Part shown: piece after piece, positions 3,578 through 30,435 of the stretch
Numbering within the stretch: the stretch's first letter is position 1
Layout of the letters: each line of letters starts with the position of its first letter
NCBI GenBank assembly: GCA_003173895.1
Contig: PJMG01000001.1
Span: 15,576-79,575, forward strand
Length of the DNA stretch: 64,000 nucleotides
Reading direction: 5' to 3'
Source of the DNA: Candidatus Levyibacteriota bacterium
GTDB taxonomy: Bacteria; Patescibacteriota; Microgenomatia; Levybacterales; UBA12049
Notes under the pieces: generated by a model
What the model was told of the DNA's origin: nothing
The model's input: the letters and a program-made list of their open reading frames with translations, nothing else
Databases searched by the model: none
Program-made: the position numbers and the translations under genes

Positions 3578-4838
3578 TTTAAAAAATAAAAAAATTTTAA
3601 TCTTAGGCTATGGAGTAGAAGGAAAAGAAACAGAAAAATTTCTAAAAAAACACTTAGGAGAAAATTCCGTTATAGAAGTGGCAGACCAAAAATTAGATCC
3701 TACTTATTTAGAAAAACAAAATAATTTTGATATAGTCATTAAATCTCCGGGTATCCATAAATCAAAAGTGAAAATCCCTTATACTACAGCTACTAATATT
3801 TTTTTGGAAAATGCCAAAGGAATTATTATTGGAGTAACTGGAACTAAAGGAAAAAGTACTACTACTAAATTAATTTATGAAATTTTAAAAAACGCATTTG
3901 GTAATCGCGTGCATTTACTCGGTAACATTACACATAAATTAACCTCTTTAGGTAATCCACTTTTATCAGAATTAGAACTAGAAAAAAAAGATCAAATTTA
4001 TGTCTGTGAACTTTCCAGTTTTCAACTAGATGATATTAAAAAAAGTCCGCATATTTCAGTTTTTACTTCTTTTTTTCCAGAGCATATGGATTTTCATGAA
4101 AATCTAGAAAATTATTTCAACGCTAAAGCAAATATTACCAAATTTCAAGATGAAAAAGATTATTTTATTTATAATCCCAAGTTTAAAGAACTACAAAATT
4201 TAGCCAAACAAACAAAAGCTAAATCTGTACCACTAGATAAAAATTATGAAATAAAGAAAACAAATTTATCAGGTGAACATAATTTAGATAATATAAAATT
4301 AGCTATTACAGTAGCTAAAATCTTAAATGTTAACGACGAAATAATTAAAAAAACTATAGCAGATTTTAGACCTTTACCACATCGACTAGAAAAAGTAGGG
4401 GAGTATAGAGGAATAATTTTTTACGATGACGCCATCTCTACTACACCTCAATCAACCATCGCTGCTATTAAAGCATTAAAAAATATTGAAACTATTTTTT
4501 TAGGCGGACAGGATCGAGGATATGATTTTAAAAATTTGGCTAAAACAATTATAGAATATAAAATCCCAAATTTAGTTTTTTTTCCAGAAAGTGGAGAAAA
4601 AATTTTAGAAGCAATTAACGTCTTTGCGAGGAGTGAAAATACGAAGCAATCTTACTCTTATAGACCAAATATCTTATCAACTAAATCTATGCAAACGGCA
4701 GTAAAATTTGCTTATGAAAATACTAAACCAGGTAAAATTGTTCTACTTTCAAATGCATCACCTAGTTATAGTATTTGGAAAAATTTTGAAGAAAAAGCTA
4801 AAGACTTTAGAGAAGAACTCAAAAAACAGATTACTTAA
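3564..4838 (+). CDS. murD: UDP-N-acetylmuramoylalanine--D-glutamate ligase
   Basis: MurD-type N-terminus KKILILGYGVEGK. Mur ligase P-loop GVTGTKGKSTT. Confidence 0.75.
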   Translation: MKINDLKNKKILILGYGVEGKETEKFLKKHLGENSVIEVADQKLDPTYLEKQNNFDIVIKSPGIHKSKVKIPYTTATNIFLENAKGIIIGVTGTKGKSTTTKLIYEILKNAFGNRVHLLGNITHKLTSLGNPLLSELELEKKDQIYVCELSSFQLDDIKKSPHISVFTSFFPEHMDFHENLENYFNAKANITKFQDEKDYFIYNPKFKELQNLAKQTKAKSVPLDKNYEIKKTNLSGEHNLDNIKLAITVAKILNVNDEIIKKTIADFRPLPHRLEKVGEYRGIIFYDDAISTTPQSTIAAIKALKNIETIFLGGQDRGYDFKNLAKTIIEYKIPNLVFFPESGEKILEAINVFARSENTKQSYSYRPNILSTKSMQTAVKFAYENTKPGKIVLLSNASPSYSIWKNFEEKAKDFREELKKQIT

Positions 4839-4924
4839 TCTAAAAATTTGTACTTAAACTCCACTTACTAATTTCTTACCAAATTTTGAATGTCTTTTTT
4901 ACTATTTAATTCAAAATAAATCGT

Positions 4925-5149
4925 ATGGGTGAAGGAAATGGGAGAGGTTTTGCAGGAATGCCGCCTGAAAAACAGCGTTTAATTGCAAGTATGGGAGGAC
5001 GAAGAGCACATGAATTAGGTGTTGCACATACATTTACTACTGACGAAGCAAGAAAAGCAGGACGTAAAGGGGGTAAAACTTCTAGAAGGAAATCGATAAC
5101 TACGCAGAATATTTCTTTAGAACTAAATAATTCATTAACAGAACCTTAA
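4925..5149 (+). CDS. KGG-repeat general stress protein (YciG/GsiB-like)
   Basis: Repeated (E/K)AGRKGG motifs, EARKAGRKGGKTS. The gene is visibly GC-richer than its surroundings. Confidence 0.6.
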   Translation: MGEGNGRGFAGMPPEKQRLIASMGGRRAHELGVAHTFTTDEARKAGRKGGKTSRRKSITTQNISLELNNSLTEP

Positions 5150-16892: not shown

Positions 16893-17234
16893 TTAGAACA
16901 GTTTTTCTCCAATTTTAGCTTCTTTATTAGGAGTGACTAAAACTACATTACCATTTTTATCTTTAACACCTAAGGTTAGTACTTCAGAAATAAATGGACC
17001 AATTTGCTTAGGCGGAAAATTTACTACTCCTAAAACTTGCGTATAAATTAAGTCTTCTTTTTTATAATTAGCTACAATTTGTGCCGATGATTTTTTAATT
17101 CCTATTTCTTCTCCAAAATCTATTTCTAGTTTGTATGCAGGTTTTCTAGCTTCTGGAAAATCTTCCACTTTAATTATTTTTCCAACCTTAATATCTATTT
17201 TTTCAAAACCAGAAAAATCAATCATATTATCCAT
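16893..17234 (-). CDS. Stand-alone tRNA-binding protein (CsaA/Trbp111, EMAP-II-like OB fold)
   Basis: IDIKVGKIIKVEDFPEARKPAYKLEIDFGEE matches the tRNA-binding domain normally found at the PheT or MetRS N- or C-terminus. Confidence 0.65.
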   Translation of the reverse strand: MDNMIDFSGFEKIDIKVGKIIKVEDFPEARKPAYKLEIDFGEEIGIKKSSAQIVANYKKEDLIYTQVLGVVNFPPKQIGPFISEVLTLGVKDKNGNVVLVTPNKEAKIGEKLF

Positions 17235-17298: not shown

Positions 17299-18756
17299 TT
17301 AATATGCTTGCGCAAAATACCATCTGTATTTTGCATCTTTACCACAATAAATGCATTTACCGTTTTCTTCTTTTGTATCAAAAGATAAACAGCGAGTAGT
17401 AGCTTTTGTTTCTTCTTTAATTTTAGCTTCACAGTTAGCATCTTCACACCATAATGCTTTTATAAAACCACGTTTAGTCGCCATAATTTTTTTGAATTCA
17501 TCATAGGAATCAATTGTATGGGTATTTTCATCTAAAAATTTCTTAGCATTTTTAAAAAGTTGATTTTGAACTTTTGAAAGTAAATGATCTACCTCCACTC
17601 CCGCTTTATCTAAAATAATTTCAAAACTATTTTTATCTTCAATACTAATTCTAGTTTTTACTGTTAATGATCTATTTTCTAACTCTTTTAAGCCAACGAC
17701 AATTCTAACTGGTATGCCTTTTAATTCTGCTTCGTTATTTTTAAAACCAAATGTTTTCCAACTCTCATCCCAAATTTCTATACCACCTGGAAATTCTGAA
17801 CTACTACTTTCTAAAATCTCTTTAATTTTTTTGGCATAATCCAGTATTTTTTCGTCTTCTTTGCCTAAGATTGGAATTATTACTATTTTAGTTGGTGCTA
17901 TTTTAGGAGGAAGAATGAGCCCTTGATCATCTCCATGAGTTAAGAAAAGGCCACCTAAACTTCGAGTAGAAAAACCCCAAGAAGTTTGCCAAACAAAATC
18001 ATTATTCCCTTCTTTATTTTGAAATGAAATATTAAAAGCTTTAGAAAAATTTTGTCCTAAATTATGAGATGTACACGCTTGAAGAGCTTTACCATCTGGC
18101 ATAAGTGCTTCCACTGTAAAAGTAGTTTTAGCACCAGCAAATTTTTCTTTTTCACTTTTTCGACCTGTTATAACAGGCATTGCATAATAATTCTCATAAG
18201 TTGTTTGATACCACTCAAGTGCTTTAGTTTGCATTTCTATTGCTTCCTTTTCGGTAGCATGAGCTGTATGTCCCTCTTGCCATAGAAATTCTGTAGTTCT
18301 AAGAAATAAATATGTTCTTTTTTCCCATCTAACTACATTATTCCATTGATTAATAAGTAGAGGTAAATCTCGCCAGGACTGAATCCACTTAGAATAAGTA
18401 TCGTACATAATAGTTTCTGAAGTAGGACGAACTACAACTGGCTCTTGAAGTTTCTCACCCCCACCAATAGTCACTACTGCTAATTCTGGTGAAAATCCTT
18501 CTACATGACTTTTCTCGCGATTTAAAAATCCCATTGGGATAAAAAGAGGGAAGTAAGCATTCTTTACTCCATAACTTTTAAACATCCTATCCAAAATATT
18601 CTGGACATTTTCCCAAATTGAATAACCATAAGGACGAATAATCATAGTTCCCTTAACAGGACCATAATCAGCTAGTTGAGCTTTTAAAACCACATCGTTA
18701 TACCACTCAGAAATGTTTTCAGATTTTTTAGTAATTTCTTTTTTATCAAAACTCAT
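17299..18756 (-). CDS. proS: Proline--tRNA ligase (archaeal/eukaryal-type class II)
   Basis: N-terminus SEWYNDVVLKAQLADYGPVKGTMIIRPYGYSIWE and class II motifs. C-terminal Zn-binding C..C...C..C. Confidence 0.85.
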   Translation of the reverse strand: MSFDKKEITKKSENISEWYNDVVLKAQLADYGPVKGTMIIRPYGYSIWENVQNILDRMFKSYGVKNAYFPLFIPMGFLNREKSHVEGFSPELAVVTIGGGEKLQEPVVVRPTSETIMYDTYSKWIQSWRDLPLLINQWNNVVRWEKRTYLFLRTTEFLWQEGHTAHATEKEAIEMQTKALEWYQTTYENYYAMPVITGRKSEKEKFAGAKTTFTVEALMPDGKALQACTSHNLGQNFSKAFNISFQNKEGNNDFVWQTSWGFSTRSLGGLFLTHGDDQGLILPPKIAPTKIVIIPILGKEDEKILDYAKKIKEILESSSSEFPGGIEIWDESWKTFGFKNNEAELKGIPVRIVVGLKELENRSLTVKTRISIEDKNSFEIILDKAGVEVDHLLSKVQNQLFKNAKKFLDENTHTIDSYDEFKKIMATKRGFIKALWCEDANCEAKIKEETKATTRCLSFDTKEENGKCIYCGKDAKYRWYFAQAY

Positions 18757-18774: not shown

Positions 18775-19797
18775 TTATTTTATTAAAGATATCAAATCTT
18801 TAGGATCTTTCATATCAGGAAGTAAATTAAGTTCTTCACCAATTCCATATCTCTTTGACAATTCATAAGTGAGCCTTAGGGCAGAGTAGTCTTCTAAACC
18901 AATTCCTACAGAATCAAATAATGTTATCTCTTTATCATTTTCGCGTCCTTTTTGATTACCATTTATTATTTCAAACATTTCAGCACTTACCATTTTTTTA
19001 GCATCTTTCAGTTTTAAACGTTGAATTTCTCCTTCTATAAAAGATTGTTCAAAATATTCGACGACAATTCTGCTCCTATTTAGAATACTTAACTCAAGCT
19101 CTGTTTTTCCCACTGTATCTCCTCCAAGTGCATTAAGATGCATACCATTTTTAACCCAATCATTTTTAATTACATCTACATTGGCTTTACAAGCAGTACA
19201 AACTGTAATAATATCTGCATTTTCTATTGTTTCCTGTACATTTTTGCCACGAACAAGCTTAAGTCCACTATCTTTCATATTTTTTTCAAATTTATCCATT
19301 GCTTTAGCATCAATATCAAAGTATCTTACTTCTTTAATATCTCTAATTAATTGCATACCTTTAACTTGAAATTCACTTTGAGCACCTGTACCAATAACGG
19401 CTAAAACTTTAGCATTTTTTCGCGCCATTAAATTTGTAGCTAAAGCAGAATTAGCAGCAGTTCGAAGAGCAGTAAGTAAAGTCATCTCACTGAACATGAG
19501 TGGATAGCCTGTATCAATTCGTGACAACTGACCTGTGGCCACTATGGTCATTTTCCCACTTTCTGGATTTTTAGGATGACAATTTACATATTTAAATGTG
19601 TAATAAAGTTCATTATCACAAATAGGCATGAGCTCTAAAACTCCACCAGGAACATGCATAGCAGGGCGGGGCATTTTAGTAAATTTATCCCACCTACTAT
19701 AATCTCTCTTTAATGCTTCCATTAAATCTTTCAGATAGTTTTCAAAACCATGTTTTTCTAAAATTTTATTTAATGATTCAATTGATATTATTTTCAT
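18775..19797 (-). CDS. Ornithine cyclodeaminase/mu-crystallin family protein
   Basis: OCD-like pattern: LLTALRTAANSALAT, Rossmann VLAVIGTGAQS. Confidence 0.75.
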   Translation of the reverse strand: MKIISIESLNKILEKHGFENYLKDLMEALKRDYSRWDKFTKMPRPAMHVPGGVLELMPICDNELYYTFKYVNCHPKNPESGKMTIVATGQLSRIDTGYPLMFSEMTLLTALRTAANSALATNLMARKNAKVLAVIGTGAQSEFQVKGMQLIRDIKEVRYFDIDAKAMDKFEKNMKDSGLKLVRGKNVQETIENADIITVCTACKANVDVIKNDWVKNGMHLNALGGDTVGKTELELSILNRSRIVVEYFEQSFIEGEIQRLKLKDAKKMVSAEMFEIINGNQKGRENDKEITLFDSVGIGLEDYSALRLTYELSKRYGIGEELNLLPDMKDPKDLISLIK

Positions 19798-20047
19798 ATA
19801 TTTTTAAACAAAAAACCCTTGTAAAAACACCAATAAAAATATTGATATTCTTACAAGGGCCCTTCGACATTGCTCCGGACGGTACCACCTTGCTTTTACT
19901 CATTCATCCTCTTCTTTTATCTTTAAACAAAGAGTGCTGTCTTTTACACTTTCGCCTGTGTAGCTGCTCATCGCAGTCAGCTCATGGGTGGGAAACCCAA
20001 TCAACGCTTTATAAATTAAGTATACAAACTAAATTTAACTACGTCAA
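19798..20047 (-). promoter_or_regulatory. T-box leader (tRNA-sensing riboswitch) with promoter and intrinsic terminator, upstream of ocd-proS
   Basis: Minus-strand RNA contains the T-box motif GGUGGUACCG (forward 19880-19889). Next is a terminator hairpin CCCUUGUAA...UUACAAGGG + U6 (forward 19809-19859), then the ocd ATG. Promoter TTGACG-17-TATACT lies at forward 20019-20047. Confidence 0.6.
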
Positions 20048-30319: not shown

Positions 30320-30429
30320 TCATAAATATGAAATCTACACAAATGTATATTGTCCTTTTTATTAACCGCTAAGGCGGAGGGACTTTTTCGTATAGAAAAG
30401 TTTTCAACCGCCAAATAGGCGGTTTTTTT
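30320..30429 (+). promoter_or_regulatory. Leader-peptide transcription attenuator, copy A (three hairpins ending in an intrinsic terminator)
   Basis: Hairpin 1 GUCC..CCGC-UAAG-GCGG..GGAC, hairpin 2 CUUUUU/GAAAAG, terminator AACCGCC-AAAU-AGGCGGUU + U7 at 30407-30429. An alternative GGCGG:CCGCC antiterminator is possible. Nearly identical to copy B. Confidence 0.55.
30328..30372 (+). CDS. Putative leader peptide MKSTQMYIVLFINR (14 aa)
   Basis: ATG 30328 to TAA 30370-30372. The stop codon sits in the loop of hairpin 1. The C-terminus is conserved with the copy B peptide. Confidence 0.4.
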   Translation: MKSTQMYIVLFINR

Positions 30430-30435
30430 GTGGAT

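What the first reader, a model, noticed from the sequence alone, without database searches (positions are those of the whole stretch)
19798..20047. T-box riboswitch upstream of ornithine cyclodeaminase-proS (proline supply operon)
Seen in sequence: the 5' leader of ocd on the minus strand carries the conserved T-box sequence GGUGGUACCG (forward 19880-19889). About 25 nt downstream is an intrinsic terminator CCCUUGUAA-(loop)-UUACAAGGG + U6 (forward 19809-19859), placed where the T-box/antiterminator should compete with it. A strong promoter TTGACG-17-TATACT lies upstream (forward 20019-20047).

Established knowledge: T-box leaders sense uncharged tRNA and control aaRS and amino-acid biosynthesis genes, including proS and proBA in Firmicutes. 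Inference: here uncharged tRNA-Pro would induce both the proline-forming enzyme (OCD, from ornithine) and prolyl-tRNA synthetase. Candidate specifier triplets CCC/CCA occur early in the leader (UUUCCCACCC), but I could not fold Stem I by eye. A T-box in a CPR-like genome, coupled to an ornithine to proline route rather than to proBA, is noteworthy.
Basis: partly seen in the sequence, partly recalled or inferred. Interest (0 to 1): 0.7.

Follow-up and report, generated by a model that had tools for sequence, protein, structure and literature searches.

The report
Miniature proline T-box riboswitch, CPR bacteria
The leader RNA in front of the proline-making gene ocd and the prolyl-tRNA synthetase gene is a tRNA-sensing T-box riboswitch, but a stripped-down version that standard annotation misses, and it pairs a tiny tRNA-reading hairpin with a transcription terminator, a combination the field treats as atypical.

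Summary
Rfam RF00230 scores 22.8 bits (gathering 93; E 0.59 window-wide), because 76 Stem I model positions are replaced by 7 nt. Comparative data settle the question. About 70 of 140 CPR (Microgenomates-type) ocd loci carry the same leader. A covariance model built without the window finds it at 48 bits (E about 2e-14). Across 57 distinct decoding domains, 96.5% of cells are paired and 16 of 18 pairs show compensatory changes. The 7-nt apical loop always carries a proline codon followed by a purine. The bulge UGGU matches A73 of CPR tRNA-Pro genes. A sister leader before tRNA-His and hisG switches to CAC and UGGG (C73). Every leader has an antiterminator overlapping a terminator with a U-tract. 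This is a proline T-box with an ultrashort Stem I (no elbow-binding platform), a 13-nt Stem II and an intrinsic terminator. Ultrashort Stem I is otherwise described for translational actinobacterial ileS T-boxes. I rate it a new variant of a known kind. Function is inferred, not tested.

The parts
20019..20047 (-). Sigma-70-type promoter TTGACG (20047-20042), 17-nt spacer, TATACT (20024-20019). The predicted transcription start is about 20012-20010.
   Evidence: One search gives a 10/12 match. Position is conserved: 41 of 51 related leaders have a promoter-like site of at least 9/12 within 60 nt upstream, against 5 of 51 shuffled controls.
19798..20010 (-). The whole 5' leader, a miniature proline T-box riboswitch.
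19979..20008 (-). Basal helix P0 (AGC 20008-20006 pairs with GCU 19981-19979) with a K-turn/GA motif. The bulge is GUU (20005-20003). The tandem G.A pairs are GA 20002-20001 and GA 19983-19982. The helix encloses Stem I.
   Evidence: The Rfam T-box alignment places these on the consensus gC-gaU-GA...GA-Gc with posterior probability about 1. The P0 pairs covary in the family (helix 1).
19985..19999 (-). Ultrashort Stem I: UGGG (19999-19996), heptaloop UUUCCCA (19995-19989), CCCA (19988-19985). The specifier CCC is at 19992-19990 and the conserved 3' purine A is at 19989.
   Evidence: Hairpin covariation: 98.4% paired, 4 of 6 pairs with double-sided changes, 0/500 shuffles. The loop always carries CCN followed by a purine. 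In the Rfam alignment, 76 Stem I positions are replaced by these 7 nt.
19964..19976 (-). Miniature Stem II: CUGC-GAUGA-GCAG, a 4-bp stem with a conserved GAUGA/GAUAA pentaloop and no internal S-turn loop.
   Evidence: All 5 pairs of helix 3 have double-sided changes and 97% of cells are paired. Relatives with a longer Stem II show an internal loop GAUA/GUAA at the same place.
19936..19961 (-). Stem IIA (ACAC-AGGCGAAA-GUGU, 19961-19946), an F-box-like tail GUGUAAAAG (19949-19941), and the putative IIB pseudoknot pairing GC (19955-19954) with GC (19937-19936).
   Evidence: The window's IIA carries two compensatory changes relative to the consensus ACGG/CCGU. IIB loop-to-own-tail complementarity scores 3.89 against 2.98 +/- 0.19 for permuted tails, with 0 of 20000 permutations reaching it. 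In the window IIB is only 2 bp.
19909..19934 (-). Linker hairpin CUCUUUGUUUAAAGAUAAAAGAAGAG, possibly the Stem III equivalent.
   Evidence: It appears in the MFE fold. It is shared with L004, and L114 has a hairpin at the same place. Its homology to Stem III is uncertain.
19893..19908 (-). Purine-rich linker GAUGAAUGAGUAAAAG directly 5' of helix A1. It contains GAAUG and AAAAG, which resemble the RRRNG ... AA purines that flank Stem III.
   Evidence: Read from the sequence. The motif is described in PMC7778990. AAUGAG/AAUAAG and AAAG are conserved across the family.
19854..19892 (-). T-box sequence and antiterminator. A1 is CAAGG (19892-19888) paired with CCUUG (19858-19854). The 7-nt bulge is UGGUACC (19887-19881). 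A2 is GUCC (19880-19877) paired with GGGC (19862-19859), with a 14-nt loop.
   Evidence: A2 covaries across 37 distinct leaders. A1 covaries in L114. UGGU matches A73 of CPR tRNA-Pro genes.
19810..19861 (-). Intrinsic terminator: a 20-21 bp hairpin (19861-19814) whose 5' arm includes the 3' strands of A2 and A1, followed by U6 (19815-19810).
   Evidence: Free energy is -27 to -30 kcal/mol, against -6.5 for the antiterminator. For the whole leader, OFF is -48.9 and ON is -28.6 kcal/mol. Every leader of the family has the same arrangement.
18775..19797 (-). ocd, ornithine cyclodeaminase, the first regulated gene.
   Evidence: PF02423, E 1e-87. NF005762 equivalog, 435 bits against a cut-off of 350.
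17299..18756 (-). proS, prolyl-tRNA synthetase of the archaeal/eukaryal type. It begins 19 nt after ocd.
   Evidence: Pfam domains. TIGR00408, 566 bits against a cut-off of 437.
16893..17234 (-). CsaA/YgjH-type tRNA-binding protein, probably the third gene of the operon.
   Evidence: PF01588. NF007494, 161 bits against a cut-off of 109. The gene follows ocd on the same strand in 38 of 140 loci.

Best explanation
The roughly 213-nt leader (20010 to 19798, minus strand) is a proline-specific T-box riboswitch of a miniaturised type. It controls ocd-proS by transcription attenuation.

Transcription starts at TTGACG-17-TATACT. The first 79 nt fold into the decoding module:
- a 3-bp basal helix with a K-turn;
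- a 4-bp Stem I whose apical heptaloop UUUCCCA displays the Pro codon CCC followed by a purine;
- a 13-nt Stem II hairpin;
- the Stem IIA/B element with its A-rich F-box-like tail.

The anticodon of tRNA-Pro (GGG) pairs with CCC. Further downstream, CAAGG-UGGUACC-GUCC...GGGC-CCUUG forms the antiterminator. Its bulge UGGU pairs with the free 3' ACCA of uncharged tRNA-Pro (discriminator A73) and is stabilised by that pairing.

Without uncharged tRNA, the strand GGGCCCUUG is captured by the much more stable 21-bp terminator, and RNA polymerase stops at the U6 tract 13-18 nt before the ocd start codon. Proline starvation therefore turns on both proline synthesis from ornithine and ProRS.

Shown here: all sequence elements, their conservation and covariation, the codon, discriminator and pathway changing together, and the mutually exclusive folds. 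Inferred: tRNA binding, charge sensing and termination in vivo.

Unlike canonical transcriptional T-boxes, this one has no distal Stem I platform for the tRNA elbow and no S-turn-bearing Stem II. So tRNA would be read essentially through its anticodon and its NCCA end.
For: 1. RF00230 aligns full-length to 20013-19852. The K-turn base and T-box/antiterminator columns are confident, and Stem I is collapsed to 7 nt.
2. Covariance model R1 was built from 11 relatives without the window. It hits 20010-19932 at 48.4 bits, E about 2e-14, and nothing else in 64 kb.
3. About 70 of 140 CPR ocd loci carry the leader.
4. Across 57 distinct decoding domains, 96.5% of cells are paired, against 23-37% when the partners are slid. 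16 of 18 pairs show double-sided changes, and 0/500 shuffles reach any measure. Stem I was also tested on a plain MAFFT alignment: 98.4% paired, 0/500.
5. The IIA/B pseudoknot is supported by a permutation test, 0 of 20000.
6. The apical loop codon is CCC, CCU, CCA or CCG. CC is fixed, the third base is free, and a purine follows.
7. All leaders have A1, a bulge starting UGGU, a covarying A2, and a terminator overlapping A1 followed by U5-8.
8. The CPR tRNA-Pro(GGG) and tRNA-Pro(CGG) genes read directly have A73, and L109's tRNA-Pro(UGG) ends ...CCCCCG-A-CCA in the sequence. tRNA-Pro genes are physically linked to five of these loci.
9. A sister leader in L005 has CAC in the apical loop and UGGG in the bulge. 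It precedes tRNA-His (G-1, C73) and hisG.
10. The OFF fold is about 20 kcal/mol more stable than the ON fold.
11. The promoter is positionally conserved.
Against: - The Rfam score is far below gathering and is not significant window-wide (E 0.59).
- The distal Stem I platform is absent. Reviews call it essential for transcriptional T-boxes because it speeds tRNA capture (PMC7583486).
- Stem II has no recognisable S-turn.
- In the window, IIB is only 2 bp and Stem III is ambiguous.
- No tRNA-Pro gene lies in the window, so its anticodon and discriminator are inferred from relatives.
- Alignments A5 and A6 were fitted to the model, and the shuffle controls do not remove phylogenetic relatedness.
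- There are no experimental data, and intrinsic termination has not been shown for CPR RNA polymerase.
Confidence: 0.8

Rival explanations
1. It is a canonical class I T-box (a standard RF00230 member) with a long Stem I that simply could not be folded by eye.
For: The T-box sequence, K-turn base, antiterminator and terminator all match the consensus.
Against: Only 15 nt lie between the two K-turn strands. 76 model positions are deleted, the score is 22.8 against a gathering score of 93, and no relative reaches gathering. The AG bulge, distal loop and specifier-loop S-turn cannot exist in this space.
Confidence: 0.02
2. It is a translational T-box like actinobacterial ileS. The downstream hairpin acts mainly by sequestering the ribosome-binding site, not by terminating transcription.
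For: An ultrashort Stem I is otherwise linked to translational control. In several relatives the AUG follows the U-tract directly, and GAGG lies in the 3' arm of the hairpin (L002, L007, L039, L083, L113, L121). Dual control is plausible in those loci.
Against: In the window the hairpin is 21 bp and followed by U6, the classic intrinsic-terminator signature. All leaders keep U5-8. The window's start codon is 13 nt beyond the U-tract with no SD-like motif, and the AAGGG in the hairpin arm is about 18 nt from the AUG.
Confidence: 0.1
3. It is a decayed or relic T-box that no longer binds tRNA. The terminator is constitutive, or regulated by something else such as a protein binding the K-turn.
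For: It lacks elements considered essential. Three relatives (L003, L009, L086) have lost the T-box sequence altogether.
Against: Purifying selection is evident. There are compensatory changes in every helix across 57 distinct sequences, an invariant CC in the loop, an invariant UGGU, and co-switching to His in a sister leader.
Confidence: 0.06
4. It is a chance co-occurrence of a T-box-like 9-mer with a terminator in an AT-rich intergenic region.
For: A 9-mer is expected about 0.5 times in 128 kb, and the Rfam E-value is 0.59 window-wide.
Against: The composite pattern occurs in 0 of 100 shuffles. The leave-one-out model gives E about 2e-14. About 70 homologous leaders exist.
Confidence: 0.01

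Closest known systems
Canonical transcriptional (class I) T-box riboswitches of Firmicutes (Rfam RF00230), for example the Bacillus subtilis proBA/proI proline T-boxes with a CCU specifier, and tyrS
   Same: - K-turn at the base of Stem I.
- A codon followed by a purine as the specifier.
- Stem IIA/B with an F-box-like CCGUAA.
- A T-box sequence with the 7-nt bulge UGGNACC, where N matches the tRNA discriminator.
- An antiterminator mutually exclusive with an intrinsic terminator plus U-tract.
- Default OFF state.
- Proline specificity and control of proline supply genes.
   Different: - Stem I is 4 bp with the specifier in the apical loop.
- There is no specifier-loop S-turn, AG bulge or distal loop, and therefore no interdigitated T-loop platform for the tRNA elbow.
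- Stem II is a 13-nt hairpin without an S-turn internal loop.
- Stem III is ambiguous.
- It scores 22.8 bits against the family model (gathering 93).
- It regulates ocd, the ornithine route, rather than proBA/proI.
- It is found in CPR (Microgenomates-type) genomes.
Translational (class II) ileS T-boxes of Actinobacteria with an 'ultrashort' Stem I (Sherwood, Grundy and Henkin 2015; M. tuberculosis PDB 6UFG and N. farcinica PDB 6UFM, as summarised in PMC7583486 and PMC10651847)
   Same: A short Stem I on a K-turn, the specifier in the apical loop followed by a purine, no elbow-binding platform, and an IIA/B pseudoknot next to the decoding site. The discriminator has the same design.
   Different: - Those leaders sequester the Shine-Dalgarno sequence and lack a terminator. 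This one ends in a 21-bp hairpin plus U6.
- Those have a long Stem II (about 50 nt) whose S-turn is required for tRNA binding. Here Stem II is 13 nt.
- Specificity is Ile there and Pro here.
- The phylum differs.
glyQS T-boxes, the natural minimal transcriptional T-boxes that lack the Stem II domain
   Same: They show that a transcriptional T-box can dispense with a whole module. The leaders are compact.
   Different: glyQS keeps the long Stem I with the elbow platform and drops Stem II and IIA/B. The CPR leader does the opposite: it drops the platform and keeps a vestigial Stem II and IIA/B.

Membership tests
T-box riboswitch (general mechanism class) | A T-box sequence forming a 7-nt bulge UGGNACC between helices A1 and A2, with N complementary to the discriminator base of the cognate tRNA. 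| tested here: met
   CAAGG-UGGUACC-GUCC...GGGC-CCUUG lies at 19892-19854. The CPR tRNA-Pro genes read here have A73. The His sister leader has UGGG, and its tRNA-His has C73.
T-box riboswitch (general mechanism class) | A specifier codon for the amino acid of the regulated genes, followed by a conserved purine. | tested here: met
   The window has CCC followed by A at 19992-19989. The family has CCC, CCU, CCA or CCG followed by G or A, with one C exception. The downstream genes are ocd and proS. The His leader has CAC followed by G before tRNA-His and hisG.
T-box riboswitch (general mechanism class) | Uncharged cognate tRNA binds and switches the fold. | not testable with these tools
   This needs in vitro transcription or binding assays.
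Class I transcriptional T-box (Rfam RF00230) | It reaches the curated Rfam gathering score. | tested here: not met
   22.8 bits against 93. 0 of 20 relatives reach gathering.
Class I transcriptional T-box (Rfam RF00230) | A long Stem I with a specifier internal loop (S-turn), AG bulge and distal loop that form the tRNA-elbow platform. | tested here: not met
   76 model positions are replaced by a 7-nt loop. Only 15 nt lie between the K-turn strands.
Class I transcriptional T-box (Rfam RF00230) | A K-turn (GA motif) at the base of Stem I. | tested here: met
   AGC-GUU-GA...GA-GCU aligns to the consensus with high posterior probability. This is a sequence-level test only.
Class I transcriptional T-box (Rfam RF00230) | A Stem II with an S-turn. 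| tested here: inconclusive
   The window has a 4-bp hairpin with a GAUGA loop (19976-19964). The helix covaries, but there is no internal loop. Relatives with extended Stem II have GAUA/GUAA, which resembles the consensus GAA/AGUA.
Class I transcriptional T-box (Rfam RF00230) | A Stem IIA/B pseudoknot with an F-box. | tested here: met
   For the family, IIA is 96% paired and the IIB permutation test gives 0 of 20000. The tail CCGUAAAA resembles the F-box CCGUCA. In the window itself the element is weak: IIA is 4 bp, IIB is 2 bp, and the tail is GUGUAAAAG.
Class I transcriptional T-box (Rfam RF00230) | An antiterminator mutually exclusive with an intrinsic terminator followed by a U-tract. | tested here: met
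Class I transcriptional T-box (Rfam RF00230) | A Stem III with flanking purines (RRRNG-Stem III-AA) immediately 5' of A1. | tested here: inconclusive
   GAAUG and AAAAG are present, but no helix lies between them. A hairpin lies 16 nt further upstream, at 19934-19909.
Class II translational T-box (actinobacterial ileS type) | A short or ultrashort Stem I with the specifier in the apical loop. | tested here: met
   The definition is taken from PMC7583486.
Class II translational T-box (actinobacterial ileS type) | The expression platform sequesters the Shine-Dalgarno sequence and there is no terminator. | tested here: not met
   The platform is a hairpin plus U6 and contains no SD-like motif within range of the AUG.
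Class II translational T-box (actinobacterial ileS type) | A long Stem II whose S-turn compensates for the missing elbow contact. | tested here: not met
   Stem II is 13 nt.

The most novel reading that the evidence does not exclude
CPR (Microgenomates-type) bacteria use a distinct, widespread class of miniature transcriptional T-boxes. These read tRNA only through its anticodon and its NCCA end. They have no elbow platform and only a vestigial Stem II.

This would contradict the view that co-transcriptional T-boxes need the elbow contact to capture tRNA in time. In about half of the family (not in this window), the missing kinetic help may come from an internal GC hairpin plus U-tract placed before the T-box sequence. 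That element could act as a programmed pause or as a first checkpoint terminator. Three leaders have kept only that element and lost the charge-sensing discriminator.
Probability: 0.35. Interest if true: 0.8.

Novelty: new variant of a known kind. Interest (0 to 1): 0.62.

Why it matters
Reviews and recent primary papers link Stem I length to regulatory mode. Long Stem I with the elbow platform goes with transcriptional T-boxes, and short Stem I goes with translational ones. The argument is kinetic: tRNA must be captured before the polymerase reaches the terminator. A conserved family of about 70 leaders that joins an ultrashort Stem I and a 13-nt Stem II to an intrinsic terminator is a natural counter-example, so the argument becomes directly testable.

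At about 175 nt from K-turn to terminator, with a 79-nt decoding module, it would be among the smallest natural T-boxes. That makes it attractive for structural work and for engineering.

It also shows that tRNA-sensing riboswitches exist in CPR genomes, where RF00230 at its gathering score found none in the window or in 20 relatives. It identifies ornithine cyclodeaminase as the starvation-induced proline source in these reduced genomes.

Tried and rejected
- **Rfam at gathering threshold.** There is no T-box in the window or in 20 relatives. Only the permissive mode shows the sub-threshold alignment.
- **Whole-leader MFE.** It pairs CCACC, in the Stem I loop and 3' arm, with GGUGG of the T-box. 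I rejected this as the native fold because comparative data support the local hairpin instead.
- **MAFFT alignment of the IIA/B region.** It did not keep the IIB tail in register, so I replaced it with a register-free permutation test.
- **Source identification.** The CPR assignment therefore rests on the names of homologues and on locus titles.
- **Papers not held.** Sherwood 2015, Vitreschak 2008 and Gutierrez-Preciado 2009 could not be read. The statements about actinobacterial ileS T-boxes come from reviews and later papers.
- **The co-encoded tRNA-binding protein as a substitute for the missing elbow contact.** I rejected it as a specific link. The gene follows ocd about equally often in loci with the leader (22) and without it (16).
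- **Exact-motif search for GGTGGTACC.** It undercounted the family. 27 further leaders have bulge variants UGGUACA, UGGUAAC or UGGUAUC.
- **First automatic terminator parse.** It failed for the window because of a U5 run inside the terminator loop. This was corrected.
Full report
**1. Observation**

- GGUGGUACC is at 19889-19881, followed by G at 19880.
- A 20-21 bp hairpin at 19861-19814 is followed by U6 at 19815-19810.
- TTGACG-17-TATACT is at 20047-20019.
- UUUCCCACCC is at 19995-19986.

The ORFs downstream are an ornithine cyclodeaminase and a family-I ProRS. The OCD matches PF02423 and the NF005762 equivalog at 435 bits (cut-off 350). The ProRS matches TIGR00408 at 566 bits (cut-off 437). 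A CsaA/YgjH-type tRNA-binding protein follows them.

Single elements are not significant on their own. Promoter-like sites are not enriched in this AT-rich region, and a 9-mer is expected about 0.5 times in 128 kb. The composite pattern AAGGTGGTACC-N8-38-CCTTG, however, occurs in 0 of 100 shuffles. The leader folds with z = -5.1.

**2. The proposed decisive test fails, for an informative reason**

RF00230 gives no hit at gathering threshold anywhere in the window.

With permissive filters it aligns full-length to 20013-19852. The score is only 22.8 bits against a gathering score of 93. E is 0.0046 for the 501 nt searched and 0.59 for the whole window.

The alignment explains the low score. The K-turn base (AGC-GUU-GA ... 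GA-GCU) and the T-box/antiterminator columns align with high posterior probability. But 76 consensus positions of Stem I are replaced by 7 nt. There is physically no long Stem I here: only 15 nt (UGGG-UUUCCCA-CCCA) lie between the two K-turn strands.

**3. Comparative evidence**

*Collecting relatives.* OCD homologues at 65-77% identity are abundant in CPR bacteria, including Levy-, Woese-, Gottesman- and Roizmanbacteria and Dojkabacteria. I fetched 60 CPR loci from species-representative genomes and 80 from metagenomes. Forty-five loci have an exact GGTGGTACC upstream of ocd. None of the 20 tested reaches the Rfam gathering score.

*Leave-one-out model.* I built a covariance model of the decoding domain from 11 relatives, with the window deliberately excluded (A4, R1). 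It finds 20010-19932 in the window at 48.4 bits, E about 2e-14, and nothing else in 64 kb. It also detects 27 more leaders whose bulge reads UGGUACA, UGGUAAC or UGGUAUC. About 70 of 140 CPR ocd loci therefore carry this leader. Saccharibacteria- and Parcubacteria-type loci mostly do not.

*Covariation.* On 57 distinct decoding domains, 96.5% of cells are paired, against 23-37% when partners are slid by 1-3 columns. Sixteen of 18 pairs have changes on both sides, in 171 cells, and 0 of 500 shuffles reach any measure. That alignment is fitted to the model, so I also tested Stem I on a plain MAFFT alignment. There, 98.4% of cells are paired, 4 of 6 pairs have double-sided changes, and 0 of 500 shuffles match.

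*Pseudoknot.* The IIA loop pairs with a tail 5-9 nt downstream. Examples are GUC/GAC, GGAU/AUCC, GUUU/AAAC, GUUA/UGAC, GCUU/AAGC and GCAA/UUGC. Complementarity to a leader's own tail scores 3.89, against 2.98 +/- 0.19 for permuted tails, and 0 of 20000 permutations reach it.

**4. Tests of T-box logic**

a. *Specifier.* The apical loop is a heptaloop. Positions 4-6 are CCC, CCU, CCA or CCG. CC is invariant, the third base is free, and a purine follows in all but one case. In L019 and L083 a small hairpin is inserted on the 5' side of the loop. This leaves UUUCCCG or GAACCCG on the 3' side, as in a canonical specifier loop.

b. *Discriminator base.* The bulge always begins UGGU. The CPR tRNA-Pro(GGG) and tRNA-Pro(CGG) genes I read directly have discriminator A73. 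L109's tRNA-Pro(UGG) ends ...CCCCCG-A-CCA in the sequence.

c. *Linkage.* tRNA-Pro genes lie next to five of these loci. In L109 the tRNA-Pro(UGG) gene sits between the terminator and ocd.

d. *Sister leader.* L005 contains a second leader of the same architecture at 3978-4230. Its Stem I loop is GUCACGA (CAC, His) and its bulge is UGGGACC. It precedes a tRNA-His gene with G-1 and C73, and then hisG (PF01634, E 2e-44). Codon, variable bulge base, tRNA discriminator and regulated pathway therefore change together.

e. *Expression platform.* All 37 distinct leaders with the exact motif, and the variant-bulge ones, have the same arrangement. A1 is CAAGG/CCUUG, and it covaries to UACGG/CCGUA in L114. 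A2 covaries strongly, for example ACGAG/CUCGU, GUCCU/GGGGC, GCCUU/AAGGC, GCGAG/CUCGC and ACGUUA/UAACGU. A terminator whose 5' arm consumes the 3' strands of A2 and A1 follows, and then U5-8.

In the window the terminator is -27 to -30 kcal/mol, against -6.5 for the antiterminator. The whole-leader OFF fold is about 20 kcal/mol more stable than the ON fold.

f. *Promoter.* A promoter-like site of at least 9/12 lies within 60 nt upstream of 41 of 51 leaders, against 5 of 51 shuffled controls.

**5. Anatomy of the window's leader (minus strand)**

| Element | Coordinates |
|---|---|
| P0 / K-turn | 20008-20001 and 19983-19979 |
| Stem I | 19999-19985 |
| Specifier CCC, then purine A | 19992-19990, then 19989 |
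| Stem II, CUGC-GAUGA-GCAG | 19976-19964 |
| Stem IIA, ACAC-AGGCGAAA-GUGU | 19961-19946 |
| IIB, GC with GC (only 2 bp) | 19955-19954 with 19937-19936 |
| Linker hairpin | 19934-19909 |
| Purine linker GAUGAAUGAGUAAAAG | 19908-19893 |
| A1 | 19892-19888 with 19858-19854 |
| Bulge UGGUACC | 19887-19881 |
| A2 | 19880-19877 with 19862-19859 |
| Terminator | 19861-19814 |
| U6 | 19815-19810 |
| ocd AUG | 19797 |

The window's IIA stem has two compensatory changes relative to the consensus ACGG/CCGU.

The window belongs to a subgroup that keeps a canonical K-turn and a GC-rich 4-bp Stem I. Its members include L001, L004, L114, L102, L113, L119, L121, L096, L086 and L059. The larger subgroup has GUUUGG/CCAAAC and often an extra hairpin that makes a three-way junction.

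**6. Mechanism**

The best-supported reading is a proline-specific T-box acting by transcription attenuation. Uncharged tRNA-Pro pairs its anticodon with CCC and its ACCA end with UGGU. This stabilises the antiterminator and allows read-through into ocd-proS. Otherwise the terminator forms.

Translational control is less likely for the window. The hairpin carries U6, and no SD-like motif lies within range of the AUG. It may contribute in relatives where the AUG abuts the U-tract and GAGG lies in the hairpin arm.

Binding, charge sensing and termination are inferred. None of them was tested here.

**7. Comparison with known systems**

It works like a T-box and meets the defining features that can be tested by sequence: the specifier, the UGGN bulge matched to the discriminator, the antiterminator/terminator competition, the K-turn and the IIA/B element.

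It is not a member of RF00230 as curated. It lacks the long Stem I with the elbow-binding platform and has no S-turn-bearing Stem II.

Its decoding hairpin resembles the 'ultrashort' Stem I of actinobacterial ileS T-boxes. Those are translational and rely on a long Stem II S-turn (PMC7583486, PMC10651847, PMC11297988).

[quoted passage not shown] Full-text searches found no paper linking T-boxes to CPR or Patescibacteria, or to ocd regulation. The held library lacks several key subscription papers, so prior description cannot be excluded.

**8. Verdict**

The object is more interesting than a routine T-box. It is a conserved, miniaturised, terminator-type T-box class in CPR bacteria, a new variant of a known kind.

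- Confidence that it is a tRNA-Pro-sensing T-box: about 0.9.
- Confidence that it acts by transcription termination as described: about 0.75-0.8.
- Interest: 0.62.

Noticed in passing
Relatives, for example L014:2330-2370, L019:2360-2400 and L007:1290-1330. Not present in the window.: In 26 of 53 distinct leaders, a 5-7 bp GC hairpin followed by U5-8 lies inside the Stem III region, upstream of the T-box sequence. Examples are CUCCACC-GCAA-GGUGG-U7 and CACACC-GCAA-GGUGUG-U6. It looks like an intrinsic terminator or a pause site. Its 5' arm is complementary to the conserved upstream GGAGC or GUGUGU. It could be a programmed pause or a first checkpoint.
   Followed up: partly
L003:1239-1416, L009:2343-2500, L086:724-892: Three leaders keep the full proline decoding domain but end at that internal hairpin plus U7-8, directly before the ocd AUG. 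They have no T-box sequence or antiterminator. They may be decayed leaders or an anticodon-only derivative.
   Followed up: no
L005:3978-4230, with tRNA-His at 4354-4426 and hisG at 4461-5099: This is a second leader of the same miniature architecture, specific for histidine. It has CAC in the Stem I heptaloop GUCACGA and the bulge UGGGACC. It precedes a tRNA-His gene (G-1, C73) and hisG. The design is therefore not restricted to proline. Here the codon sits at loop positions 3-5 rather than 4-6.
   Followed up: yes
L109:626-701. Also L088:204-275, L130:706-781, L006:1730-1801 and L056:2201-2271.: tRNA-Pro genes are physically linked to the ocd/T-box locus. In L109, tRNA-Pro(UGG) lies between the T-box terminator and ocd on the same strand. 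The riboswitch would then control transcription of a tRNA-Pro isoacceptor, one of its own class of ligand.
   Followed up: partly
window 16893-17234 (-), and 38 related loci: A CsaA/YgjH/Trbp111-type tRNA-binding-domain gene forms a conserved cluster with ocd and proS. It follows ocd on the same strand in 38 of 140 CPR loci: 22 with the leader and 16 without it. Its role is unknown. It may be a ProRS cofactor.
   Followed up: partly
L012, L022 and L028 (antiterminator helix A2): The apical loop of helix A2 carries AU-rich insertions of 53-93 nt. This recalls the A2 insertions described for translational T-boxes and for staphylococcal glyS.
   Followed up: no
L002, L007, L039, L083, L113, L121 (3' end of the leader): The ocd AUG follows the terminator U-tract directly, and GAGG lies in the terminator's 3' arm. 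The same hairpin could therefore also mask the ribosome-binding site, giving dual transcriptional and translational control.
   Followed up: no
window 19986-19990 and 19885-19889 (-): [quoted passage not shown] Most relatives have CCGCC, which is also complementary with one G-U pair. This may be an incidental result of the Pro codon resembling the tRNA CCA end, or it may be a self-inhibitory contact.
   Followed up: no
window 30327-30431 (+): There is a weak sub-threshold Rfam match to Phe_leader: 32 bits, gathering 55, E 0.2. It is probably chance.
   Followed up: no
Titles of loci L002-L033: Many MAG records that carry this CPR-type ocd/leader locus are titled 'uncultured Gammaproteobacteria', 'Methylomirabilota', 'Sulfotelmatobacter' or 'Acidiferrales'. 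These labels look like placeholders or mis-binned contigs, so taxon names in those records should not be trusted.
   Followed up: no
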